Shown: positions 4,360 through 58,609 of the stretch, piece after piece
Numbering within the stretch: the first letter of the stretch is position 1
How the letters are laid out: each line of letters starts with the position of its first letter
DNA from: an uncultured Actinomycetota bacterium
Lineage (GTDB): Bacteria; Actinomycetota; Actinomycetes; Actinomycetales; CAWJMD01
Direction of reading: 5' to 3'
DNA length: 64,000 nt
NCBI GenBank assembly: GCA_963825505.1
Contig: CAWGTL010000014.1
Location: 209,944-273,943 of the forward strand
Notes under the pieces: generated by a model
Database searches by the model: none
Seen by the model: only the letters and a program-made list of their open reading frames with translations
What the model was told of the DNA's origin: nothing
Position numbers and translations under genes: made by a program

Positions 4360-4597
4360 CCACCACGAGGGTCGGCGTGCGCTCGTAGGACGGCGAGCGT
4401 TCTGCCACCACGAGGGTCGGCGTGCGCTCGTAGGACGGCGAGCGGTGCTGCCACCACGAGGGTCGGCGTGCGCTCGTAGGACGGCGAGCGTTCTGCCACC
4501 ACGAGGGTCGGCGTGCGCTCGTAGGACGGCGAGCGGTGCTGCCACCACGAGGGTCGGCGTGCGCTCGTAGGACGGCGAGCGTTCTGCCACCACTAGG
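4360..4597. repeat. Tandem repeat: five full units alternating 45 and 46 bp (91-bp super-unit), plus a degenerate sixth unit that contains the nuoA start
   Basis: The unit is ccaccacgagggtcggcgtgcgctcgtaggacggcgagcg(ttctg|gtgctg). Units begin at 4360, 4405, 4451, 4496 and 4542. A degenerate copy begins at 4587 (ccaccactaggctcggcgcGTGctcgcg). Copies are essentially identical apart from the alternating tail. Confidence 0.95.
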
Positions 4598-4605
4598 CTC
4601 GGCGC

Positions 4606-4992
4606 GTGCTCGCGTCCGCAGCCACGACGGCCCAGGACCCCGGCGGCTACGTCGTGGTCGGGGCCGTGGTGCTCGCCGGGCTCCTGCTCGTCGCGGGTGG
4701 TCTGGGCGCCAACCGGCTGCTGCGCCCGAGCGCCCCGAGCGCCGGCAAGGCCGCGACCTACGAGTCCGGGGTCGACCCGGTCGGCGAGGGCTGGGCGCAG
4801 ACCAACGTCCGCTACTACCTGTACGCCTACCTCTACGTCGTGTTCGCCGTCGACGCCGTGTACCTGTTCCCCTGGGCGACCGTGGTCGAGCTGTACGCCT
4901 GGCCCACGGTGCTGACGATGGCCGTCTTCCTCGGCATCCTCGCGGTCGGGCTCCTGCACGTCTGGCGGGCGGGGGTGCTGCGATGGCGCTGA
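4606..4992 (+). CDS. nuoA: NADH-quinone oxidoreductase subunit A
   Basis: The 128-aa product contains [40 protein letters not shown], a NuoA signature. The start is GTG. Confidence 0.9.
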
Positions 4993-5537
4993 CCCCCCTC
5001 CCGGCGCCCGGCCCGCGCCCCGGTCTGGTCCAGGTGGAGCACCAGGGCTCGAGCATCGGCCCGGCCCAGCAGCTCGCGCCCGACCCCGTGCGCTTCGTCC
5101 TCAACTGGGGGCGCCGCTACAGCCTGTGGGTCTTCAACTTCGGTCTGGCCTGCTGCGCGATCGAGTTCATCGCGGCGTCGATGTCCAAGCACGACTTCAT
5201 CCGGCTCGGCGTCATCCCCTTCGCCCCGGGCCCGCGGCAGGCCGACCTGATGGTGGTGTCGGGCACCGTCACCGACAAGATGGCGCCCGCGATCCGCCGG
5301 CTGTACGACCAGATGCCGGAGCCGAAGTACGTCATCTCCTTCGGCGCGTGCTCCAACTCCGGCGGCCCGTACTGGGACTCGTACTGCGTCACCAAGGGTG
5401 TCGACCAGATCGTGCCGGTCGACGTGTACGTGCCCGGCTGCCCGCCGCGGCCCGAGGCGCTGCTGCACGGCATCGTCACCCTCCAGAACAAGATCGCCGA
5501 GGAGCACCTCGGCCGGCGGTACGGCCAGGACGCATGA
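4983..5537 (+). CDS. nuoB: NADH-quinone oxidoreductase subunit B
   Basis: From the internal ATG 4983, which overlaps the nuoA stop: ...[16 protein letters not shown]...[11 protein letters not shown]...[11 protein letters not shown]. All cluster-N2 cysteines are present. Confidence 0.9.
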
Positions 5538-5599
5538 GCGAGCGCAGCGAGCGAGTCATCAGGCACAGGCCCCTGCTCATGGCGAGGCACGAGCCGTGA
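5534..5599 (+). repeat. Intercistronic 66-nt mini-ORF element, copy 1 ([21 protein letters not shown])
   Basis: ATGA at 5534-5537 overlaps the nuoB stop, and GTGA at 5596-5599 overlaps the nuoC start. The sequence is ATGAGCGAGCGCAGCGAGCGAGTCATCAGGCACAGGCCCCTGCTCATGGCGAGGCACGAGCCGTGA. It is homologous to the copies at 10888 and 57768. Confidence 0.9.
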
Positions 5600-6264
5600 G
5601 CATCGCGTGGCCCGAGGGGGTGCAGGTCGAGGAGTCGGACGCGTCCGGCACCCCGTGCTACGACGTGCCGGCGGATCGCTGGGTCGAGTCTGTGACCGCC
5701 TGCCACGCAGCGGGTTTCACGTACTTCGACTGGTTGTCGGCCGTCGACGAGCCCGACGCCGTGGGCGACCGCCCCGCCGGCGCCGACGTGGTCGCGCACC
5801 TCGTCGCGCTTCAGCCGCTACGAAGGATCCTGCTGCGTGCGAGGGTCGCGGCGGACGACGCGGAGATCGCCAGCCTGACGGCGGTCTTCGCCGGCGCGGC
5901 GTGGCACGAGCGCGAGACGCACGAGATGTTCGGGATCGGCTTCACCGGTTTCGACGACGGGTCCGGGTCGGGGCTGCGACCGCTCCTGCTCCCGGACGGC
6001 TTCGAGGGCACCCCGCTGCGCAAGTCCTTCGTCCTGGCGGCGCGGGCCGCCAAGGCCTGGCCGGGTGCGAAGGAGCCTGGCGAGGGAGGGGACGGCCACG
6101 CCGCCTCGCCGTCCCGCCGCAAGCTGCTGCCGCCCGGCGTGCCGGACGCGGCCACCTGGGGTCCGCGCGACCCGGGCGAGCCGGCCGGTCCGGTCGACAC
6201 CGCGGTCGAGGACACCACCACGACCGCCACGACCTCGGACGAGGGGTCCGACGGTGCTGGCTGA
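5596..6264 (+). CDS. nuoC: NADH-quinone oxidoreductase subunit C-like, with a low-complexity C-terminal tail
   Basis: From the GTG at 5596: VSIAWPEGV...FDWLSAVDE...AAWHERETHEMFGIGFTG...LLLPDGFEGTPLRKSF...KAWPGAKEPGE. A roughly 60-aa Pro/Thr/Asp-rich tail follows. Confidence 0.8.
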   Translation: MSIAWPEGVQVEESDASGTPCYDVPADRWVESVTACHAAGFTYFDWLSAVDEPDAVGDRPAGADVVAHLVALQPLRRILLRARVAADDAEIASLTAVFAGAAWHERETHEMFGIGFTGFDDGSGSGLRPLLLPDGFEGTPLRKSFVLAARAAKAWPGAKEPGEGGDGHAASPSRRKLLPPGVPDAATWGPRDPGEPAGPVDTAVEDTTTTATTSDEGSDGAG

Positions 6265-7213
6265 CGTGGTCGAGGTGGTGCTGCGGGCGGTCTGCGTCCT
6301 GACCGCCTTCCTGGTGCTGCCGCTCCTGGTCGGTCAGACCGAGCACAAGGTGATGGCGCACATGCAGGGCCGGCTCGGTCCGATGTACGCCGGTTCGTTC
6401 CACGGGTGGGCGCAGCTGGTGGCCGACGGCGTGAAGTTCGTGCAGAAGGAGGACTCCGTCCCGGCGGCCGCCGACAGCACGGTGTTCAAGCTCGCGCCGG
6501 GCGTCGCGCTGGTCCCCTACCTGGTGGCGCTGGCGGCGATCCCGCTCGCGCCGGGCGTGGTGGGTGCGGACGTCGACGCCGGGCTGCTGTTCGTCCTGGC
6601 GGTGTCGGCGGTGGGGGTGCTCGGGACGCTGATGGGCGGCTGGGCCAGCGGCAACAAGTACTCGCTGCTCGGGGGGATGCGCACAGCCGCACAGCTTCTC
6701 GCGTACGAGCTCCCGCTCGTGCTGGCAGCCACCTCGGTCGCCATGGCGGCCGGGACGCTCAACCTGAGTGCGATCGCCGAGTCGTGGCAGTGGTGGTGGC
6801 TGATCTGGCAGGCCCCCGCCGCGCTGGTCTTCCTCGTGGCGGGGGTGGCCGAGCTGCAGCGCCCGCCGTTCGACATGCCGATCGCCGACGCCGAGCTGGT
6901 GATGGGTCCCTACACCGAGTACGGCGGCCTGCGGTTCGCGTTCTTCCTGCTCGCGGAGTACGCCGGGATCGTCGTGCTGGCAGGGCTGTTCACCGTCCTG
7001 TTCCTCGGCGGGTGGGCCGGCCCGTTCGCCGAGGTGCTCGGCTGGCTGTGGACGCTCGTCAAGGTCGCGCTGGTCTCGTTCGTCGTGATCTGGATCCGGG
7101 TCGCGTGGCCGCGGCTGCGCGAGGACCAGCTGCAGCGGCTCGCCTGGGTCGTCCTGGTGCCGGTCGCGCTCGGCCAGCTCGCGCTGACGGCGGTCGTGGT
7201 GGTGGCGCTGTGA
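6254..7213 (+). CDS. nuoH: NADH-quinone oxidoreductase subunit H
   Basis: From the GTG at 6254 (11-nt overlap with nuoC): [13 protein letters not shown]...[17 protein letters not shown]...[26 protein letters not shown]...[17 protein letters not shown]...[15 protein letters not shown]. Confidence 0.9.
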
Positions 7214-7803
7214 GCGAGGTGGAGAAGGGGGCGGGCCCGCTGCGAGGTCTCGCGCGCGGCCTCGCCGTCACGCTGCGCACGCTCGGGAAGCCGGTCGTCA
7301 CCGCCGAGTACCCCGAGGTCGCGCCGCTGCTGCCGCCGCGCAGCCGGGGAGTGATCGCGCTGCTCGAGGAGAACTGCACCGTCTGCATGCTGTGCGCGCG
7401 CGAGTGCCCCGACTGGTGCATCTACATCGACTCGCACAAGGAGACCGTCGTCGTCGAGGGCGCCGCCCGCGACCGGCAGCGCAACGTGCTCGACCGCTTC
7501 GCCATCGACTTCTCGTTGTGCATGTACTGCGGCATCTGCATCGAGGTGTGCCCGTTCGACGCGCTGTTCTGGTCGCCCCAGTTCGAGTACTCGGGCACCG
7601 ACATCGGCGACCTCACGCACGAGCGGGAGCGTCTGCGCGAGTGGATGTGGACGGTGCCGCCGCCGCCAGCGCTGGACCCCGCCGCCCCCGCCGCCAAGGA
7701 GACCGAGGCCGCCACCCGCCCGGCCCGGTCGGCGCGTCCGGAGCGTCCGGCGCGTCCGGCCCGTCCGAGCGCCGGACCTCCGACGCCCGAGGACGACGCG
7801 TGA
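7210..7803 (+). CDS. nuoI: NADH-quinone oxidoreductase subunit I (2x[4Fe-4S]) with a repetitive Arg/Pro tail
   Basis: GTGA overlaps the nuoH stop. The product contains [12 protein letters not shown] and [12 protein letters not shown] ferredoxin motifs. The C-terminal tail is ...[18 protein letters not shown].... Confidence 0.9.
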
Positions 7804-8339
7804 CCGCCCTCGACGTCGTCCTCGGCGCCTGCGCCCTGCTGACGGCCGCGGCCGGAGCGCTGGCCGTGACGAGCAGCCGGGTGGTGCACGCCGCGCTGTG
7901 GCTGGTCGTCGCGCTCGGCGGGCTCGCGGGCGTGTACCTGCTCCTCGGCGCCGAGGTCGTCGCCCTGGTGCAGCTGCTGGTCTACGTCGGTGCGGTCGTC
8001 GTGCTCGTGCTGTTCGCCCTGATGCTCACCCGCGCCCCCACCGGTCCCACGCCGCAGAGCGGTGGCACCGACGACCTCGACTCCCCGCGTCCGGTCCGGT
8101 GGCTCGCCGCGGTCACCGGGTTCGCCACGGCCGTGCTCGTCACCGGGGCCCTGGTCGCCACCTCGGGAGCCGGGACCTTCGTCGAGCGCGACGCGAGCCG
8201 CGGCGCCGCCCGACCGCTGGGAGAGAGCCTGTTCGGCAGCTGGGTGCTGCCGTTCGAGCTGCTCTCGGTGCTGCTGCTCGCGGCACTGGTGGCCGCCGTC
8301 GCGGTGAGCCGCGGTCGTGACGACGAGGACGGTGCGTGA
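7800..8339 (+). CDS. nuoJ: NADH-quinone oxidoreductase subunit J
   Basis: GTGA overlaps the nuoI stop. The product reads [14 protein letters not shown]...[21 protein letters not shown]...[17 protein letters not shown]. Confidence 0.85.
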
Positions 8340-10891
8340 TGCACCTGCTCGTCCCGTGGCTGCTCGTCGGCGTGCTCGCCGGGCTGGGCGTGTACGGCGT
8401 GATCGCCCGGCGCAACGCGGTGATGGTCCTGGTCGGCGCCGAGCTGCTCCTCAACGCCGCGGTGCTGCTGCTGGTCACCACCGACGTCGCGCCCACGGGC
8501 CCGGCGGATCCCCTCCTGTCGGGCCAGGTGGGCGCGCTGTTCGCGGTCACGGTGGCCGCCGCCGAGATCGGCCTCGCGCTGGCGATCGTCCTGCTGCTGT
8601 TCCGCACCCGCGGCAGCGCCGACCTGCGGTCGGCCCGCTCGCTCGGCGAGACCGCCCGCGCCGTCGACCCGGCGGGTGAGCCCTCGGTGAGCCCGACCGA
8701 CCTCGTCCTGGTGCTCGTCCTCGCGCCGGCGCTCGCCGCGCTCGTCGGCCTCCCGCTCGGCCGGGTGCACCGGCGGCTCGCCGTCGCGTGCGGGGTCGGC
8801 GGAGCCCTGGTGTCGCTGCTCGCCGCGCTCTGGCTCGCCCGCGAGACCTGGGACGGCTACCCGTACGTGACCGCCGTGCCGTTCCTCGGCCGGGTCGACA
8901 CCGGCGCGGCGCCGGACACCTCGGCGCTCGACCTGCGAGTCGACGGTCTCGGCGGACTGGTGTCGGTGGCGGTCACGCTCGTCGCCCTCGGGGTGCAGGT
9001 GTACTCCGCCGGCTACCTGCGTCGGGCGCCCGACGACGCCTCCCACGCGGCGGACCCCGCGCCCACCCGCTACCCGGCGTACGCGGCCACCGTCTCGCTG
9101 TTCACCGCGGCGATGCTGCTCGTGGTGCAGGCCGACGACCTGTTCCTCGTGCTGGTCGGCTGGGAGGTCATGGGCATCTGCTCGTACCTGCTGGTGGGTC
9201 ACCACAGCGAGCGACCCGCAGCGCGTCGTGCCGCGGTGCAGGCGTTCCTGGTCACCCGGGTCGGCGACGTCGCGTTCGTGATCGGGATCATCGTCCTGTA
9301 CGCCTCCACCGGCACGAGCCAGATCGGTCGCGTCGTGGCGCAGGTCGACGAGATCGGCACGGGAACGGCCACTCTCGCGGCGCTGCTGCTGGTCGTCGGG
9401 GTGATGGGCAAGTCGGCCCAGTTCCCGTTCCACGGCTGGCTCCCGGACGCCATGGAGGGGCCGACGCCGGTCTCGGCGCTGATCCACGCCGCCACGATGG
9501 TGGCCGCCGGCGTCGTCGTCCTGGCACGGCTGCAGGCGTTGCTGGAAGCGGCGCCGATCGCCCTCGCGACGCTCGCCGTGGTCGCGACGGTGACGATGGT
9601 GGGTGCCGGTCTGGCCGCGCTCGTCGCCGACGACATCAAGCGGGTGCTGGCGTGGTCGACCATCAGCCAGGTCGCGATCATGCTCGGCGCGCTGTCGCTC
9701 GGCTCCGACGCCGGACGCGCGAGCGCACTGGCCCACCTGCTGTCGCACGCGGCGTTCAAGTCGCTGCTGTTCCTGGCGGCCGGCGTGCTGGCCCACCTGG
9801 CGGGCACCACGCTGCTGAGCGGGATCCACTCGATGGGACGCCGCGCACCGTGGACGACCGCCGCCTGGGTCGTCGGGCTGCTCTCGCTCGCCGCCCTGCC
9901 GCCGTTCGCCGGGTTCCTCTCCAAGGAGGGGGTGCTCACGGCGGCCGAGCACGGGGCGCTGGACGGTGACGGCAGCGCGCCCGCCTGGGTGGCGGCCACC
10001 CTGCTCGTGGGGATCGGCCTCACCTCGGTGCTCACCGGCGCCTACGCCGGTCGGATGCTCGCCGTCACGGTCCGCAGACCGCCTGCCGCAGAGCCGGTCT
10101 GGGACGAGGAGTGGGAGGAGGGGCCCTGGGAGGGCGCGGCCGCCGCCCCGGTCGCCACCGGCGAGGACGACTACGACCTGGTCTTCGCCATCGACCCGGA
10201 GTACCACCCCGAGGACTACGTGGCGCCGTCCCCGGCCGAGCGCGAGCGCGCGTTGCGCCTGGCCGCGGAGCGGGCCCGGCGCGAGGAGGCCCGCCGGGAG
10301 GCCGAGCGGCTCGAGGCGGAGCGGGTGCAGCTGCAGCAGGAGGAGGAGGCTGCGGCGCAGGAGCGCGCCGACGAGGACGACCGCGTGGCGGCGTCACGTC
10401 GCCGCGTCGCCCCGACGATGGGTCTGACCGTCGGGGTGCTCGCGCTCGTCACGCTCGCCGTGGCGGCGCTCCCGCTGGCCGGTGCCCGGCTGCTGGTACC
10501 GGTCGACCTCGAGCCCCTCACCGCTGCTGTCGGTGGTTTCCTCGCTCTCACAGGGCTTCTCATCGGCGTCTCGCGTGGACCGCGCGGCTCTGCCGACCTG
10601 GTCGACCGCGTGCCCGCCCGGCTGCGGGCTGCCGCGGCGTCGGGCTACGGCTACCAGGCGGCGCAGCAGGCGCTGGTGGTGCGTCCGGTTCAGGCGCTCG
10701 CCCGGCTGGTGGCCGCCGGGGACCGCGACGTCGTCGAGGGCTACGTGCGCGCCCCGGCCGTCGCTGCCCGCTGGCTCGGTGCCGGGCTGCGGCGCGTGCA
10801 GACCGGGGTGGTCACCGGCTACCTCTCGTGGGTGGTCGGCGTCGCCGTGGCCGTCGCCGTGGTGGCCGTCCTGGTGGGAGGCGGGCCGTGA
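8336..10891 (+). CDS. nuoL: Single 851-aa ORF fusing a NuoK-like domain (about aa 1-105) to NuoL
   Basis: The N-terminus, [45 protein letters not shown]...AAAEIGLALAIVLLLFR, is NuoK. There is no in-frame stop before the NuoL body (...WEVMGICSYLLVGHH...GKSAQFPFHGWLPDAMEGPTPVSALIHAATMV...). The C-terminal lateral-helix region carries a charged insertion. Confidence 0.8.
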   Translation: MMHLLVPWLLVGVLAGLGVYGVIARRNAVMVLVGAELLLNAAVLLLVTTDVAPTGPADPLLSGQVGALFAVTVAAAEIGLALAIVLLLFRTRGSADLRSARSLGETARAVDPAGEPSVSPTDLVLVLVLAPALAALVGLPLGRVHRRLAVACGVGGALVSLLAALWLARETWDGYPYVTAVPFLGRVDTGAAPDTSALDLRVDGLGGLVSVAVTLVALGVQVYSAGYLRRAPDDASHAADPAPTRYPAYAATVSLFTAAMLLVVQADDLFLVLVGWEVMGICSYLLVGHHSERPAARRAAVQAFLVTRVGDVAFVIGIIVLYASTGTSQIGRVVAQVDEIGTGTATLAALLLVVGVMGKSAQFPFHGWLPDAMEGPTPVSALIHAATMVAAGVVVLARLQALLEAAPIALATLAVVATVTMVGAGLAALVADDIKRVLAWSTISQVAIMLGALSLGSDAGRASALAHLLSHAAFKSLLFLAAGVLAHLAGTTLLSGIHSMGRRAPWTTAAWVVGLLSLAALPPFAGFLSKEGVLTAAEHGALDGDGSAPAWVAATLLVGIGLTSVLTGAYAGRMLAVTVRRPPAAEPVWDEEWEEGPWEGAAAAPVATGEDDYDLVFAIDPEYHPEDYVAPSPAERERALRLAAERARREEARREAERLEAERVQLQQEEEAAAQERADEDDRVAASRRRVAPTMGLTVGVLALVTLAVAALPLAGARLLVPVDLEPLTAAVGGFLALTGLLIGVSRGPRGSADLVDRVPARLRAAAASGYGYQAAQQALVVRPVQALARLVAAGDRDVVEGYVRAPAVAARWLGAGLRRVQTGVVTGYLSWVVGVAVAVAVVAVLVGGGP

Positions 10892-10953
10892 GCGAGCGCA
10901 GCGAGCGAACCATCGAGCGCAGTCGGCGGTCGACGGCGAGGAACGAGCCGTGA
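10888..10953 (+). repeat. Intercistronic 66-nt mini-ORF element, copy 2 (VSERSERTIERSRRSTARNEP*)
   Basis: GTGA at 10888-10891 overlaps the nuoL stop, and GTGA at 10950-10953 overlaps the nuoM start. The sequence is GTGAGCGAGCGCAGCGAGCGAACCATCGAGCGCAGTCGGCGGTCGACGGCGAGGAACGAGCCGTGA. Confidence 0.9.
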
Positions 10954-12558
10954 CCGGCGGCGAGCTGCTGCTGGTGGCGGCGCCGACGGTGCCGCTGGTG
11001 GGCGCCGCTGCCACGCTGCTCACGCGCCGGATCCCGGGCGTCCCGGCCGCGGTGGCGCTCGCGTCGGCTGCGCTCGGCGCGCTCGTCGCCGTCGGCCTGC
11101 TGCTGGTCGCGCCGCCGTGGCGCGAGGCGGGCGACTCGGTCGCCGTCGACCTGCCCTGGGCCGACCTCCTGGGCAGCCGGCTGCGGCTCGGCTGGGACGG
11201 CATCACGGCGCCGTTGGTCGTCCTGACCGCCGTGCTGGTGCTGCTCTGCGTCCTCTACCTGCGCTGGACCGCCGACGGCCACGACCCGGTCGCCGACGGC
11301 GGGGAGGGTGCCCACGCGCACGACACCCCGCGCGACGACGCGCCACCGGCCCTGCTGGCGGCGCTGCTGCTCGTCGGCTCCGGCGCCGTCGCCACGTTCG
11401 TCGCCCGCGACCTGCTGCTGTTCTTCGTCGCGTTCGAGACCGTCCTGGTGCCGATGTGGTTCGTGGTGGCCAGGTTCGGCGACGCCTCGGCCCGGCCGGG
11501 GGAGCGCGACGGCGTGGCCGCGCGGTCGGCCGCCGCGACGCGCTTCGTGCTCTACACCGCCGCGGGCTCCGCGGTGATGCTCATCGGGCTGGTGCTGCTC
11601 GTGGTGCGCACCGGCACCACCGACATGCTCGAGATCGCCCGGGTGGCACCCGATCTCGACTCCGGCACCCAGGCAACGGTCGCCCTGTTCCTGCTGCTGG
11701 GCCTCGGGGTGAAGGTGCCGGTCTGGCCGCTGCACTCCTGGCTGCCGCCGGCTCACACCATCGCGCCGACGGTCGGGTCCGTGCTGCTGGCCGGTGTGCT
11801 GCTCAAGCTCGGCAGCTACGGCCTCGTGCGGCTGGTCGCCGGGCTCGTGCCGGACGGCCTCGCGCGCTGGTCGGTGCCGCTCGCGGCGGTGGGCGTCGTC
11901 GGCGTGCTCTGGGGCGGACTGGTGTGCCTCGTCGAGCGCGACCTCAAGCGGTTGGTCGCCTTCTCGTCCGTGGCCCACATGGGCTTCGTGGCGCTCGGTG
12001 TCGCGTCCGGGACGCCGGAGGGGTTGCAAGGTGCGCTGTTCGTCGGCGTCGCGCACGGCGTCGTCACAGGTCTGCTGTTCTTCGTCGTCGGGATGCTGAA
12101 GCACCGCACGCACACCGCCGACCTGCACTCGCTCGGCTCCGGGCTGCGCGACCGCTCGCCGCGGCTTGGGCTGGGTGCTCGCGCTCGGCTGCATCGCGGG
12201 GCTGGGGCTGCCGGGACTGGCCGGGTTCTGGGGCGAGGTCCTGGCGCTCGTGGGCACCTGGCGCGGTGAGGAGCGGCTGGGCGGCGCCGGCGCGGTGGCG
12301 TTCACCGTCGCCGCGGCCGTCGGCACGGCGCTCGCCGCGGCCTACCTGCTCCGCGTCCTGTACCTGGTGTGGCACGGTCCGGCGGAGGAGCCCCGCGACG
12401 CAACCGCGGCCGTGGGGACGGGCGACCTGCGACGCGGCGAGCAGGTGGTGCTCGCGCCGCTCGTGCTGGCCGCGGTCGCGTTCGGCGTGCTCCCGTGGCT
12501 CCTGCTCTCGCTCACCGGTCCCGCAGTGCGGCTGCTGCTCGAGGCGGGTGCCGGGTGA
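10950..12558 (+). pseudogene. nuoM: NADH-quinone oxidoreductase subunit M, reading frame broken by one extra base near 12168-12171
   Basis: The frame from GTG 10950 gives VTGGELLLVAAPT...FFVAFETVLVPMWF...VPVWPLHSWLPPAHT...AFSSVAHMGF...LRDRSPRLG and then turns to nonsense. The +1 frame (track ORF 12166..12558) continues with WVLALGCIAGLGLPGLAGFWGEVLAL.... The junction is cgg ctt ggg c tgg gtg. Confidence 0.8.
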
Positions 12559-14009
12559 GCGTCCAGTCCGTCGACGTCGTCGCCACCGGACCGGTTCTCG
12601 TCACCGGCCTGGCTGTGCTCGTCGTCCTCGTCGTCCAGGCGGTGCTGCCGGGACGGCGGCTGGTGCTCGACGCCGTCGCGGTCGGCGGCCTCGGCCTGGC
12701 CGGCGTCGCGCTGGTGGTGCTCGCCGCGGGCGACCTGCCGCGAGCCACGTTCTGCGCGCAGGGCGTCGGGGCAGGGCGGTGCTCGTTCGTCGCCGATCCC
12801 GTCACGGTGGCGTTGCAGCTCGTGGTGCTGCTGACGGCGGTGATCGCGCTGCTGCTCGCGCTCGACGGTCCCGGCGCCTCGGGACGCACGACCCGGGCGG
12901 AGCACCACGCGCTGCTGCTGGCGGCGGTCGCCGGTGCGCTGGCCCTCGCCGGCGCGCGCGACCTCGCGACGCTGGTGGTGGCCCTGGAGACCGCGTCGCT
13001 GCCGGTCGTGGGGCTGGTGGCCCTGCGGCGCGACGCCGACGGCGCGCAGGCTGCCACGAAGCTGCTGCTGGTGGCCGTCACCTCGCTCGGGCTGCTGCTG
13101 CTCGGCGTGGCGCTGATCTACGCGGGCACCGGTTCCCTGCACCTGTCAGCGGTCGCGGCCGCCACCGCTGACGGCGGCTCTCCGGTGGTCGTTCTCGGCA
13201 CCGTGCTCGCCGTGGCGGGGATCGGCTACAAGGTGGCAGCGCTGCCGTTCGGCCTGTGGGTGCCCGACGTGTACGCCGGGTCCCCGGTGCCGGTCGCGGC
13301 CTTCCTGTCCACGACCTCGAAGGTGGCCGGTCTCGCGGCCGCGGCGATCCTGCTCGTCATCGGGCTGCCGGGCGACTCCGCCTCGTGGCAGCCGTGGTTC
13401 GCGGTGCTCGTGGTCGCGACGATGACGATCGGCAACCTGGTGGCCCTCGCCCAGACCGGCGCGGTGCGGCTGCTCGCCTGGTCGACGGTGGCCCAGGCGG
13501 GGTGGGTGCTCCTGCCGCTGCTCGGCACCGGCGACGCCGGCACCCGGATCGGTTCGGCGGCGGTGTACCTGCTCGCCTACGGGACGGCGTCCGCGGTCGC
13601 CTTCGCCGTCGTCGTGCTGGTGACGCGGCACCACGTCTCCGGTGCCGGCCACCTGCTGGAGGACCACCGCGGGCTGGTCCGCCGCGAGCCCGTCGCCGCT
13701 CTGCTCCTCGCGCTCGCCCTGCTGAGCCTCGCCGGGCTGCCGCCGGGCGTCGCGGGGCTGGTGGCGAAGGTGGCCGCCCTGCGGCCCGTGGTCGACGACG
13801 GGCTCTGGTGGGTCGCGGCCGCGGCGGCCCTGAACGTGGCGCTCGGTCTGGCCTACTACCTGCGCTGGACCGCCCTGCTGCTGGCACGCCCGACCGACGA
13901 CGACCCGCCCCCCACCTGGCAGGTGCGACCGGCCGAGGGGGCCGCGCTGGGGCTCGGCGGGGTGCTGCTCGTGGCGTTCTGCGTCGTCCCCGGCCTGATG
14001 GTGCTCTGA
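12555..14009 (+). CDS. nuoN: NADH-quinone oxidoreductase subunit N
   Basis: GTGA overlaps the nuoM stop. The product reads VSVQSVDVVATGPVLV...YKVAALPFGLWVPDVYAGSPVPVAAFLSTTSK...LLAWSTVAQAGWVL.... Confidence 0.85.
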   Translation: MSVQSVDVVATGPVLVTGLAVLVVLVVQAVLPGRRLVLDAVAVGGLGLAGVALVVLAAGDLPRATFCAQGVGAGRCSFVADPVTVALQLVVLLTAVIALLLALDGPGASGRTTRAEHHALLLAAVAGALALAGARDLATLVVALETASLPVVGLVALRRDADGAQAATKLLLVAVTSLGLLLLGVALIYAGTGSLHLSAVAAATADGGSPVVVLGTVLAVAGIGYKVAALPFGLWVPDVYAGSPVPVAAFLSTTSKVAGLAAAAILLVIGLPGDSASWQPWFAVLVVATMTIGNLVALAQTGAVRLLAWSTVAQAGWVLLPLLGTGDAGTRIGSAAVYLLAYGTASAVAFAVVVLVTRHHVSGAGHLLEDHRGLVRREPVAALLLALALLSLAGLPPGVAGLVAKVAALRPVVDDGLWWVAAAAALNVALGLAYYLRWTALLLARPTDDDPPPTWQVRPAEGAALGLGGVLLVAFCVVPGLMVL

Positions 14010-56796: not shown

Positions 56797-57771
56797 GTGG
56801 GTGTCGAGATCTCCGTCGACGGCCTCACCAAGTCGTTCGGGTCGCAGCTGATCTGGGACGACGTCACGCTCACCCTCCCCGAGGGCGAGATCTCGGTGAT
56901 GCTCGGTCCGTCCGGTACGGGCAAGTCGGTGTTCCTCAAGACGCTGGTGGGCCTGCTCAAGCCCGACCGCGGCTCGATCGTCATCGACGGCAAGGACATC
57001 ACCCGGCTGCGCGAGGCCGACCTGTACGAGGTGCGCAAGCTGTTCGGCGTGCTGTTCCAGGACGGCGCGCTGTTCGGCTCGATGAACCTCTACGACAACA
57101 TCGCCTTCCCGTTGCGCGAGCACACCAAGAAGTCCGAGTCCGAGGTCGAGGCCGTCGTCACCGAGAAGATGGACCTGGTGGGCCTCACCGGCGCCGAGGA
57201 CAAGCTGCCGGGCGAGATCTCCGGCGGCATGCGCAAGCGTGCCGGCCTGGCCCGGGCGCTGGTGCTCGACCCCGAGATCCTGCTGTTCGACGAGCCCGAC
57301 TCCGGCCTCGACCCGGTGCGCACCGCGTACCTCAACCAGCTGATCGTCGACCTCAACGCCCAGACCGGCGCCACCTGCCTGATCGTCACCCACGACATCA
57401 ACACCGCCCGCACGGTGCCGGACAACATCGGCCTGCTGTACCACAAGCACCTGGCGATGTTCGGGCCCCGCGAGATGCTGCTGTCGAGCGAGGAGCCGGT
57501 GGTCCGGCAGTTCCTCAACGCCCAGCGGGTCGGCCCGATCGGCATGAGCGAGGAGAAGGACGCCGACGAGCTCGCCGCCGAGTCCGGCCAGGAGCTGCCC
57601 CCGCTGCCGCCGATCCCGATGCAGCTCGAGCCGAGCGACGGCAGCCACCGCCCGACCCAGCGCGAGCCCGGCGCGTGGTGCCGCGACAACGGCGTGACGC
57701 CGCCGCCGGGGTCGTTCCAGGGCGACCCCACCAGCCCCAAGACCCTCAGCGCCGCCGGGGCCGACGCATGA
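56797..57771 (+). CDS. mceG: Mce-associated ABC ATPase (Mkl/MceG, MlaF-like)
   Basis: GPSGTGKSVFLK (Walker A), ISGGMRKRAGLARAL (signature motif) and LLFDEPDSGLDP (Walker B). A Pro-rich C-terminal tail follows. It lies directly upstream of yrbE/mce. Confidence 0.9.
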   Translation: MGVEISVDGLTKSFGSQLIWDDVTLTLPEGEISVMLGPSGTGKSVFLKTLVGLLKPDRGSIVIDGKDITRLREADLYEVRKLFGVLFQDGALFGSMNLYDNIAFPLREHTKKSESEVEAVVTEKMDLVGLTGAEDKLPGEISGGMRKRAGLARALVLDPEILLFDEPDSGLDPVRTAYLNQLIVDLNAQTGATCLIVTHDINTARTVPDNIGLLYHKHLAMFGPREMLLSSEEPVVRQFLNAQRVGPIGMSEEKDADELAAESGQELPPLPPIPMQLEPSDGSHRPTQREPGAWCRDNGVTPPPGSFQGDPTSPKTLSAAGADA

Positions 57772-57833
57772 GCGAGCGGAGCGAGCGAGTCATCCAGCAC
57801 CGTGCGCACGCCATGGCGAGGTACGAGCCGTGA
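57768..57833 (+). repeat. Intercistronic 66-nt mini-ORF element, copy 3 ([21 protein letters not shown])
   Basis: ATGA at 57768-57771 overlaps the mceG stop, and GTGA at 57830-57833 overlaps the yrbEA start. The sequence is ATGAGCGAGCGGAGCGAGCGAGTCATCCAGCACCGTGCGCACGCCATGGCGAGGTACGAGCCGTGA. Confidence 0.9.
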
Positions 57834-58609
57834 GCGCCGTGACGGGAGCCGCCACCGGCGCGCTGCGGCAGACCGGGTCGCTGTTCGCGATGATGCTCGA
57901 CACGCTGCGGATGTGCTTCCGGCGCCCGTTCCAGGTCCGCGAGTTCGTCCAGCAGTCGTGGTTCATCGCGTCCGTGACGATCCTGCCCACCGCCCTGGTC
58001 TCGATCCCGTTCGGTGCGGTCATCGCCCTCCAGCTGGGCAGCCTCACCCGCCAGCTCGGTGCGCAGTCCTTCACCGGCGCGGCGAGCGTCCTGGCCGTGA
58101 TCCGCGAGGCCAGCCCGATCGTCACCGCGCTGCTGATCGCGGGCGCGGGCGGCTCGGCGATCTGCGCCGACATCGGCTCGCGCAAGATCCGCGAGGAGAT
58201 CGACGCCATGGAGGTGCTCGGCATCTCGCCGATCCAGCGCCTCGTCGTGCCGCGTGTGCTCGCCACGATGCTCGTGGCCGTCGGCCTCAACGCGCTGGTC
58301 TCGGTGGTCGGCGTCGCGGGCGGCTACTTCTTCAACGTCGTCCTGCAGGGCGGCACCCCGGGCGCGTACCTCGCCTCCTTCACCGGCCTGGCGCAGCTGT
58401 CCGACCTGTGGGCCGGTGAGGTCAAGGCCCTGGTGTTCGGGTTCATCGCCGCCATCGTCGCCAGCTACAAGGGGCTCACTGCGGGCGGCGGTCCGAAGGG
58501 CGTGGGCGACGCGGTGAACCAGAGCGTCGTCATCACCTTCATGCTCCTGTTCGTCGTCAACTTCGTCCTCACGGCCGTGTACTTCCAGGTCGTCCCCCAG
58601 AAGATCTGA
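57830..58609 (+). CDS. yrbEA: Mce-system permease YrbEA (MlaE family)
   Basis: The 259-aa product contains ...FVQQSWFIASVTILPTALVSIPFGAVIALQLG...REEIDAMEVLGISPIQRLVVPRVLA.... Confidence 0.9.
   Translation: MSAVTGAATGALRQTGSLFAMMLDTLRMCFRRPFQVREFVQQSWFIASVTILPTALVSIPFGAVIALQLGSLTRQLGAQSFTGAASVLAVIREASPIVTALLIAGAGGSAICADIGSRKIREEIDAMEVLGISPIQRLVVPRVLATMLVAVGLNALVSVVGVAGGYFFNVVLQGGTPGAYLASFTGLAQLSDLWAGEVKALVFGFIAAIVASYKGLTAGGGPKGVGDAVNQSVVITFMLLFVVNFVLTAVYFQVVPQKI

What the first reader, a model, noticed from the sequence alone, without database searches (positions are those of the whole stretch)
5534..5599. MIRU-like 66-nt intercistronic mini-ORF element, three copies placed exactly at operon stop/start junctions
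Three 66-nt segments (5534-5599, 10888-10953, 57768-57833) are clearly homologous. The first roughly 27 nt (RTGAGCGAGCGSAGCGAGCGARYCATC) and the last roughly 17 nt (GGCGAGGNACGAGCCGTGA) are nearly identical, while the middle diverges.

Each copy is exactly 22 codons. Its RTG start overlaps the stop of the upstream gene (RTGA), and its TGA stop overlaps the GTG start of the downstream gene (GTGA). All three copies run in the same orientation as the operon.

The conserved 3' end supplies a GAGG Shine-Dalgarno 8 nt before the downstream GTG. The element is therefore a self-contained translational-coupling cassette that can sit in a 4-nt gene overlap without polar effects. Two explanations fit: a 63-nt in-frame insertion with a TGA duplication, or a 62-nt insertion with a 4-nt RTGA duplication.

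The architecture matches what was reported for mycobacterial interspersed repetitive units (MIRUs; Supply et al. 1997, cited from memory). I do not recognise this SERSER-type sequence as a described family. The encoded peptides are [42 protein letters not shown] and [21 protein letters not shown].
Basis: partly seen in the sequence, partly recalled or inferred. Interest (0 to 1): 0.85.

Follow-up and report, generated by a model that had tools for sequence, protein, structure and literature searches.

The report
MIRU-like relay mini-ORF repeat element
Three copies of a 62-nt repeat sit exactly in the 4-nt stop/start overlaps of operon genes in a high-GC actinomycete; they belong to a widespread and apparently undescribed family that resembles mycobacterial MIRUs and carries two unusual G·A-mismatch hairpins.

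Summary
The three 66-nt segments are real homologues (77-84 bits against a family model; the next window hit scores 17.8). They lie at nuoB|nuoC, nuoL|nuoM and ABC-ATPase|MlaE-permease junctions, RTGA to RTGA.

A genome-collection scan found over 117 loci carrying the two conserved boxes, almost all in Actinomycetota. Fifty copies begin with RTGA. In 46 of 47 testable copies, the next NTGA after the 3' box is in the mini-ORF frame. Unit lengths are 50, 62, 68, 71, 74 and 77 nt, all 3n+2.

Sixty-three relatives of the nuo operon have a bare RTGA overlap instead, so the window sites are insertions.

The junction codons form the hairpin feet and covary with internal bases. The peptide shows no coding constraint.

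Best reading: a MIRU-type non-autonomous repeat that inserts at RTGA start codons and keeps translational coupling through a relay ORF. It is not sequence-homologous to MIRU. How it moves is unknown. The DNA-type hairpin chemistry hints at a single-stranded DNA step, which is inference.

The parts
5534..5599 (+). Copy 1: 62-nt unit plus shared RTGA; mini-[24 protein letters not shown]
   Evidence: 80 bits
5534..5556 (+). Copy 1, hairpin 1: R1-Y23, T2-R22, three tandem G·A blocks, four G-C pairs, GNA triloop (N at 5545). It contains the nuoB stop TGA (5535-5537) and the mini-ORF ATG.
   Evidence: RNAalifold consensus and pair counts; pos1 x pos23 association
5578..5598 (+). Copy 1, hairpin 3: CATGGC-GA-G-[GCA]-C-GA-GCCGTG. 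It holds the GAGG Shine-Dalgarno (5584-5587) and the nuoC start GTG (5596-5598) in its 3' arm.
10888..10953 (+). Copy 2, between the nuoL stop (10889-10891) and the nuoM start GTG (10950-10952)
   Evidence: 77 bits
57768..57833 (+). Copy 3, between the ABC ATPase (mceG-like) stop (57769-57771) and the MlaE/YrbE permease start GTG (57830-57832)
   Evidence: 84 bits
4983..5537 (+). nuoB (upstream gene of copy 1)
   Evidence: Pfam Oxidored_q6; gene call in L001-L003
5596..6264 (+). nuoC (downstream gene of copy 1)
   Evidence: Pfam Complex1_30kDa; identical 222-aa product called on 3 metagenome contigs
8687..10891 (+). nuoL (upstream gene of copy 2)
10950..12558 (+). nuoM (downstream gene of copy 2). 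The window sequence carries an extra C near 12171 relative to L002, which shifts the frame.
56797..57771 (+). ABC transporter ATPase (mceG/mkl-like), upstream gene of copy 3
   Evidence: Pfam ABC_tran
57830..58609 (+). MlaE/YrbE permease, downstream gene of copy 3
   Evidence: Pfam MlaE, 2e-70

Best explanation
The three segments belong to a family of short, non-autonomous repeat elements of Actinomycetota. They are built like mycobacterial MIRUs but are not homologous to them in sequence.

A unit is 3n+2 nt long (62 nt here). It is inserted at an RTGA start codon, most often the 4-nt stop/start overlap of two operon genes. The filled site reads RTGA-unit-RTGA.

The upstream gene keeps its TGA. 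A 21-codon ORF with no coding constraint starts on the overlapping RTG and ends on a TGA. That TGA overlaps a new RTG, which serves as the start codon of the downstream gene, 8 nt after a GAGG.

The likely mechanism (inferred) runs as follows. Ribosomes finishing the upstream gene re-initiate on the relay ORF. Translating the relay ORF melts the 3' hairpin that otherwise sequesters the Shine-Dalgarno sequence and the start codon. The ribosome then terminates and re-initiates on the downstream gene. Coupling and stoichiometry are preserved, and the insertion is not polar.

The two conserved boxes are hairpins made of G-C pairs, tandem sheared G·A pairs ('CGAG blocks') and a GNA triloop. They form only on the sense strand. 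They are probably the signals used for spread, possibly as single-stranded DNA. That step is inference, and the mobilising enzyme is unknown.
For: Shown:
- The copies are real.
- The junctions are exact.
- The family occurs in more than 117 public loci.
- Of 50 RTGA-led copies, 46 of 47 have the first NTGA after the 3' box in the mini-ORF frame (p = 4e-21). They fall into six length classes, all 2 mod 3.
- Flanking ORFs in the matching frames have GC3 of 0.8-0.98.
- Other copies sit at ilvB|ilvN, guaB|guaB-like, livH|livM, an ABC half-transporter pair and NUDIX|CvpA-protease.
- Sites are empty in all 63 nuoB|nuoC relatives and at both nuo junctions of the closest one, L173.
- Tandem arrays occur in relatives.
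- Nearly identical units lie on two separate contigs of one metagenome-assembled genome, with different downstream flanks. One of the two lies at a contig end.
- The hairpins are supported. RNAalifold finds them independently. In subfamily A, 92.5% of cells are paired against 11-36% when the partner is slid. In subfamily C, 95% are paired against 14-42%, with 6 compensatory pairs and 0 of 500 shuffles reaching the observed score.
- The start codon is paired in 41 of 48 copies.
- G1 is always with C23, and T23 is never with G1 (Fisher 4.6e-5).
- Variation in the mini-ORF shows no codon periodicity, and the N of the 3' box is a first codon position (H/N/Y/D).

Literature:
- MIRUs insert at start codons with -4 coupling (PMC12548453). 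They show empty and filled sites and 4-nt direct repeats (PMC3184786).
- CGAG blocks form stable DNA hairpins (PMC10085684).
- GCGNAGC mini-hairpins are much more stable as DNA than as RNA (PMC13037366).
Against: - No experiment shows that the mini-ORF is translated or that coupling is kept.
- Nearest-neighbour folding gives unremarkable z-scores of -0.5 to -1.4, because the model treats the cap as an open loop.
- The genome scan required exact boxes. Box conservation among retrieved copies is therefore partly by construction, and copy numbers are lower bounds.
- The window copies differ by 16-26%, so they are not recent.
- No strain-level insertion polymorphism was found, and no transposase was identified.
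- Covariation counts are not corrected for shared ancestry.
- About 6 of 48 copies lie at gene starts without an overlapping upstream gene. A few variants are in-frame (L116) or non-coding (L166).
Confidence: 0.75

Rival explanations
1. The elements are host-selected cis-regulatory RNA structures. They act as translation gates or mRNA-stability hairpins that tune subunit stoichiometry, and they are not selfish mobile DNA. Copies would spread by recombination or gene conversion and be kept for function.
For: The 3' hairpin sequesters the SD and the start codon in 41 of 48 copies. The stems are kept by compensatory change. The sites are housekeeping operons. The window copies are old and diverged.
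Against: The same element occurs at unrelated operons. All 63 relatives do without it at nuoB|nuoC. Tandem arrays and genome-specific subfamilies are typical of amplifying repeats. Variants occur before a tRNA and fused in frame to a gene. There is no Rfam family.
Confidence: 0.15
2. The mini-ORF encodes a functional 21-aa peptide (SERSER...ARxEP), and the repeats are paralogous small genes.
For: The ORF is always open. The N-terminal SERSER and C-terminal AR-EP are conserved.
Against: Entropy is equal at the three codon positions (0.59/0.47/0.49; 1.0/1.07/1.03 in the middle). The freely variable N of the 3' box is a first codon position. ORF lengths vary from 17 to 26 codons between subfamilies. 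The conserved parts coincide with base-paired hairpins that show covariation.
Confidence: 0.03
3. The similarity is chance or low-complexity (GAGC-type microsatellite) sequence in a 74% G+C genome, or these are ordinary conserved linkers.
For: The 5' box is made of GAGC-like repeats, and GC-rich genomes give many spurious matches.
Against: Shuffle expectations are 0.1 and 0.45 against 3 observed. The model scores are 77-84 bits against 17.8 for the best non-copy. The family is found in more than 117 loci with exact junction geometry. Relatives have empty sites.
Confidence: 0.01

Closest known systems
Mycobacterial interspersed repetitive units (MIRUs; Supply et al. 1997, as described in PMC3184786 and PMC12548453)
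   Same: Units of 40-100 nt sit inside operons in the same orientation as the genes. A small ORF has start and stop codons that overlap the neighbours' stop and start (-4 spacing). Unit lengths are 2 mod 3 (53 and 77 nt in MIRU; 50-77 nt here). Both form tandem arrays, show empty versus filled sites, and have 4-nt direct repeats at the ends. The published 53-nt MIRU292 unit (PMC7977185) has a GA-GC-GCA-GC-GA motif of the same cap type.
   Different: There is no overall sequence homology. Only an 11-nt identical stretch is shared, at a different position in the unit. The hosts are non-mycobacterial Actinomycetota. The element has two hairpins whose feet are the two junction RTGAs. The caps are longer, with two to three CGAG blocks.
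REP / BIME elements and their RAYT transposases; IS200/IS605-derived palindrome-associated elements
   Same: These are short, non-autonomous, strand-specific, hairpin-based repeats without terminal inverted repeats. In IS200/IS605 the insertion lies next to a fixed tetranucleotide, and the cleavage site is recognised by pairing with bases near the hairpin foot. That is reminiscent of the R1:Y23 association.
   Different: REPs are extragenic, carry a GTAG head and have no ORF logic. No Y1/HUH transposase was identified or looked for here. In this element the hairpins abut the RTGA directly.
Mini-hairpin DNA d(GCGNAGC) and CGAG-block hairpins (PMC13037366, PMC10085684)
   Same: The sequence rule is identical: G-C pairs, sheared G·A pairs in a 5'-CGAG-3' context, and a GNA triloop with a free N. 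The 5' box contains GCGNAGC exactly.
   Different: Those are physical-chemistry motifs. They are known from phage ssDNA origins, N4 promoters and a human promoter, not from bacterial repeat elements. Their formation here is untested.

Membership tests
MIRU (mycobacterial interspersed repetitive unit) | Short unit located between co-directional genes of an operon, in the orientation of the operon | tested here: met
MIRU (mycobacterial interspersed repetitive unit) | Internal small ORF whose start overlaps the upstream stop and whose stop overlaps the downstream start (RTGA, -4) | tested here: met
   46 of 47 family copies
MIRU (mycobacterial interspersed repetitive unit) | Empty versus filled orthologous sites | tested here: met
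   63 of 63 relatives are empty at nuoB|nuoC. L173 is empty at both nuo junctions.
MIRU (mycobacterial interspersed repetitive unit) | Tandem arrays of variable copy number | tested here: inconclusive
   The copies are single in the window. Arrays of 2-3 units occur in L100, L122, L059 and L116. Copy-number variation between strains was not examined.
MIRU (mycobacterial interspersed repetitive unit) | Sequence similarity to the MIRU consensus | tested here: not met
   Only GAGCGCAGCGA (11 nt) is shared with the MIRU292 unit. Six to nine of 500 shuffles score as high. Only one published unit was available.
MIRU (mycobacterial interspersed repetitive unit) | Host in the genus Mycobacterium | tested here: not met
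   The family loci come from Nocardioides, Aeromicrobium, Flexivirga, Asanoa, Sporichthyaceae, Acidimicrobiia and unnamed actinomycete MAGs. None of the 117 retrieved is from Mycobacterium, but the scan was truncated.
MITE | Terminal inverted repeats | tested here: not met
   The 5' end TGAGCGAGCG and the reverse complement of the 3' end (TCACGGCTCG) do not match. Each end folds on itself instead.
MITE | Target-site duplication copied from the target | tested here: inconclusive
   TGA is present at both ends. The preceding R is the same in 13 of 18 copies, against about 10 expected (from alignment A2). A fixed TGA cannot be told apart from a target preference.
IS200/IS605-type or REP/RAYT-type hairpin element | Subterminal imperfect hairpins on one strand, no terminal inverted repeats, insertion next to a fixed tetranucleotide | tested here: inconclusive
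   The anatomy is compatible, but the hairpins abut the RTGA and no intermediate is known.
IS200/IS605-type or REP/RAYT-type hairpin element | Cognate Y1/HUH transposase in the same genomes | not tested
   Only 8-kb tiles around matches were available. Whole genomes could not be scanned.
Mini-hairpin DNA / CGAG block | Sequence rule GCGNAGC, with 5'-CGAG-3' tandem G·A blocks | tested here: met
   The N is free: C57/A42/G30/T1 in the 5' box and A78/C22/G21/T9 in the 3' box.
Mini-hairpin DNA / CGAG block | Physical formation of the hairpin (melting, NMR) | not testable with these tools
   Nearest-neighbour models do not score sheared G·A stacks or GNA triloops.
Any Rfam RNA family | Match at or near the gathering score | tested here: not met

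The most novel reading that the evidence does not exclude
The two caps are single-stranded-DNA recognition structures of an unknown hairpin-guided mobilisation system. The system would pick RTGA start codons by pairing the target's R with the element's position 23 (A with T, G with C), which would make it a programmable target choice. The same 19-nt cap, GAGCGAGCGNAGCGAGCGA, is also found in about 35 unrelated contexts in phage contigs of 32-66% G+C and in haloarchaeal repeats. It could therefore be a cross-domain structural module, with MIRUs as one branch of a much larger class.
Probability: 0.2. Interest if true: 0.85.

Novelty: new variant of a known kind. Interest (0 to 1): 0.68.

Why it matters
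MIRUs have been used for tuberculosis typing for 25 years, yet how they arise and move is still unknown, and they were known only from mycobacteria. This family shows that the same design occurs across Actinomycetota in many genome-specific subfamilies. The design is a 3n+2 unit that slips into a stop/start overlap and passes ribosomes on through a relay ORF.

The many subfamilies give the comparative power that MIRUs lack. Compensatory changes define two hairpins and place both junction codons in the hairpin feet. The DNA-type chemistry of the caps and the R1:Y23 association yield a testable hypothesis for the insertion mechanism.

The element is also a natural, compact, non-polar coupling cassette that could be useful in operon engineering. 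In addition, it is a source of mis-annotated start sites and of small ORFs that appear in ribosome profiling.

Tried and rejected
- Rfam, gathering threshold on the window and on 15 viral loci, and E-value mode on copy 1: only tRNAs and noise.
- A third, middle hairpin: the spacer shows no fold signal (mean z 0.18 and -0.29).
- Single-sequence MFE as evidence for structure: z-scores were unremarkable.
- Further copies in the window: none beyond the three.
- An orthologous mceG|yrbE junction: in the only relatives found (L057, L081), yrbE is the first gene of its operon, so the sites are not comparable.
- Homology to MIRU: only an 11-nt match. The MIRU292 fold is unremarkable.
- Phage carriage of the element: the two-box pattern gives only two viral hits, neither of the RTGA type.
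- Literature: no paper text contains the 15-nt cap. 'MIRU-like' gives nothing relevant.
- My first statistic on unit length (L mod 3 with an in-frame stop) was circular. It was replaced by the any-frame NTGA test.
- Replication-strand bias could not be judged from tile coordinates.

Full report
**Observation**

The three segments are present as described. Aligned with flanks, identity rises sharply at the first RTGA and falls after the last. Each conserved box occurs exactly three times in the 64-kb window. Dinucleotide-preserving shuffles predict 0.10 and 0.45 occurrences.

A covariance model built from 18 family members scores the three copies at 77-84 bits. The next window hit scores 17.8 bits and is unrelated sequence on inspection.

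Pfam identifies the flanking ORFs:
- nuoB | nuoC, where the Complex1_30kDa domain lies in the frame of the GTG at 5596, not in the frame of the longer ORF that starts at 5607
- nuoL | nuoM
- an ABC ATPase | MlaE-type permease

Metagenome contigs of the same species carry the same elements. An independent gene caller there starts nuoC and nuoM on the element's GTG.

**The family**

Almost all are Actinomycetota: Nocardioides, Aeromicrobium, Flexivirga, Asanoa, Sporichthyaceae, Acidimicrobiia and many unnamed MAGs.

Of 130 distinct copies, 50 are immediately preceded by RTGA. Among these, the first NTGA after the 3' box, in any frame, lies in the frame of the ORF opened by the 5' RTG in 46 of 47 cases. 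A third would be expected by chance (p = 4e-21). The unit lengths are 50, 62, 68, 71, 74 and 77 nt, all 2 mod 3.

In about 35 copies, the ORFs that end on the 5' TGA and start on the 3' RTG have third-position G+C of 0.8-0.98 in the matching frames. Pfam on five further copies gives ilvB|ilvN, guaB|guaB-like, an ABC half-transporter pair, NUDIX|CvpA-protease and livH|livM.

The remaining copies fall into several groups:
- second units of tandem arrays (L059, L100, L122)
- copies at tile edges
- about six copies at the start of a gene with no overlapping upstream gene, for example L172, where a solo 3' fragment precedes a full copy

Variants also exist. In L116, three 72-nt units are joined by ATGG instead of ATGA and are fused in frame to the downstream ORF. 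In L166, two units lie in a spacer before a tRNA.

Subfamilies are genome-specific:
- the 62-nt type of the window, found in at least seven tiles of chromosome OY969553.1
- a 71-nt type in Flexivirga
- a 77-nt type in OY969798.1 and Sporichthyaceae
- a 74-nt type in Asanoa

**Empty sites**

A metagenome search with NuoC gave 80 loci at 49-75% identity. Sixty-three of them contain both nuoB and nuoC. None has the element or either box at the junction. The junction is nearly always a bare ATGA, GTGA or TTGA overlap.

The closest relative is L173 (NuoB 86%, NuoC 75%). It reads cgATGAgcgag at nuoB|nuoC and ccGTGAacggg at nuoL|nuoM. The window copies are therefore insertions of 62 nt into 4-nt overlaps.

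**Structure**

Both boxes are self-complementary if G·A pairs are allowed.
- The 5' box reads R-T-[GA]-GC-[GA]-GC-(GNA)-GC-[GA]-GC-[GA]-R-Y.
- The 3' box reads CAYGGC-[GA]-G-(GNA)-C-[GA]-GCCRTG.

In each box the only variable base among the window copies is the N of the GNA triloop.

RNAalifold predicts the same two helices without guidance. Pair counts support them:

| Measure | Subfamily A (18 copies) | Subfamily C (8 copies) |
|---|---|---|
| Cells forming a standard pair | 92.5% | 95% |
| Same, with the partner slid | 11-36% | 14-42% |
| Pairs with change on both sides | 3 | 6 |
| Shuffles reaching the observed covariation score | 0 of 500 | 0 of 500 |

In subfamily A the pairs with compensatory change are 1:23, 47:63 and 49:61. 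In subfamily C the stem under the cap is 13-14 bp.

The downstream start codon is paired in 41 of 48 copies. The first base of the 5' RTGA is associated with position 23. G goes with C in 19 of 19 copies. A goes with T in 13 and with C in 10. T23 is never found with G1 (Fisher 4.6e-5).

Two cautions apply. The scan required exact boxes, so box conservation in the retrieved copies is partly by construction. The covariation counts are not corrected for ancestry.

Nearest-neighbour folding gives unremarkable z-scores, because it treats the cap as a 9-nt loop. The spacer between the hairpins has no fold signal.

The sequence rule of the caps matches two published motifs. One is the 'CGAG block' hairpin (PMC10085684). 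The other is the d(GCGNAGC) mini-hairpin, which is reported to be much more stable as DNA than as RNA and to occur at ssDNA origins and N4 promoters (PMC13037366). The complementary strand would carry C·T mismatches and cannot form these structures.

**No peptide constraint**

Column entropy is the same at the three codon positions. It is 0.59/0.47/0.49 overall and 1.0/1.07/1.03 in the spacer. The free N of the 3' box is a first codon position (H, N, Y or D). The ORF is kept open and in frame, but its product is not conserved as a protein.

**How it most likely works**

What is shown: the geometry, the empty sites, the hairpins and the lack of peptide constraint.

What is inferred:
- The unit enters at an RTGA start codon.
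- Ribosomes that terminate on the upstream TGA re-initiate on the overlapping RTG of the relay ORF.
- Translating the relay ORF opens the 3' hairpin that otherwise hides the GAGG and the start codon.
- Termination on the second TGA is followed by re-initiation on the overlapping RTG of the downstream gene.

The insertion is thus non-polar, and coupling is enforced. This is the logic proposed for MIRUs (PMC12548453).

How units spread is unknown. Three features make a single-stranded-DNA, hairpin-recognising mechanism attractive but unproven: the DNA-type caps, their strand specificity, and the association of the target R with an internal base. That mechanism is reminiscent of IS200/IS605 or REP/RAYT systems. 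Two nearly identical units lie on different contigs of one MAG (L100 and L122, the latter at a contig end), with different downstream flanks. This suggests recent copying or gene conversion, provided the two contigs are separate loci.

**Comparison with known elements**

The design matches MIRU feature by feature (PMC3184786, PMC12548453). Sequence homology was tested against the one published unit I could obtain, MIRU292 at 53 nt (PMC7977185). It was not found. Only GAGCGCAGCGA is shared, at a different position in the unit. That shared stretch is itself a one-block cap of the same type.

The element lacks the terminal inverted repeats of a MITE and the GTAG head and extragenic position of a REP. 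No Rfam family matches. The 15-nt cap sequence appears in no searchable paper.

I therefore file it as a new variant of the MIRU kind, not as a member of the MIRU family.

**Verdict**

Confidence in the MIRU-type relay-ORF repeat reading is 0.75. The mobilisation mechanism remains open.

Noticed in passing
window 4360-4612: A 45-nt tandem repeat (CCACCACGAGGGTCGGCGTGCGCTCGTAGGACGGCGAGCGTTCTG) of 5.6 copies lies in the spacer just upstream of, and reaching, the nuoA start. Metagenome contigs of the same species (L001, L002) have 4.6 copies, so the copy number varies.
   Followed up: partly
window ~12171 (nuoM, 10950-12558): The window has an extra C (TTGGGCTGGG against TTGGGTGGG in L002). This shifts the nuoM frame: the ORF from 10950 stops at 12269 and the rest reads in the frame of 12166-12558. 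It is either a pseudogene or an assembly error. L001 also lacks an intact nuoM call.
   Followed up: partly
window 4606-14009: The nuo operon is a short form containing nuoA, B, C, H, I, J, K, L, M and N. It lacks nuoD, E, F and G (gene calls on L001/L002).
   Followed up: no
L004-L055 (IMG/VR viral contigs): The 5' box alone (TGAGCGAGCGNAGCGAGCGA) occurs in 52 viral contigs of 32-66% G+C. There are 42 distinct sequences, which I group by eye into about 35 contexts, and they look non-coding. Eight of the 42 have at least 4 further Watson-Crick pairs around the box, against 1.6% in slid controls. L016 has a 15-bp stem. Several are followed by an A-run/T-run palindrome. No Rfam family covers them. 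The function is unknown.
   Followed up: partly
L062-L172, e.g. L068, L072, L067, L143, L066, L063, L108: Other repeat families reuse the same two caps on different stems and are not bounded by RTGA. Examples are a three-hairpin unit in Aeromicrobium (CCGA...CCCGGGCGAAGCCCGG...), an AGGT...CTCGAAACC type in Nocardioides, one in Actinomadura, and one in the archaeon Haloarchaeobius.
   Followed up: no
L116 4882-5090 (-) and L166 (-): In Flexivirga alba, three 72-nt units are joined by ATGG instead of ATGA. They are in frame with each other and with the downstream ORF, forming a repeated N-terminal extension with an ATG in each unit. Two 68-nt units with ACGA ends lie in a spacer before a tRNA.
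   Followed up: partly
L172 7133-7150: A solo 3' fragment of the element (CGAGGAACGAGCCATGA) lies 12 nt after a gene's stop and directly precedes a full copy. This shows that partial units exist.
   Followed up: no
PMC7977185 Table 1 (M. avium subsp. paratuberculosis): The published MIRU292 unit contains a GA-GC-GCA-GC-GA cap. Another published tandem repeat, MAPK_TR_3, contains CGGGCGAAGCCCGG, a GCGAAGC mini-hairpin on a stem. GNA-capped hairpins therefore also occur in mycobacterial repeats.
   Followed up: partly
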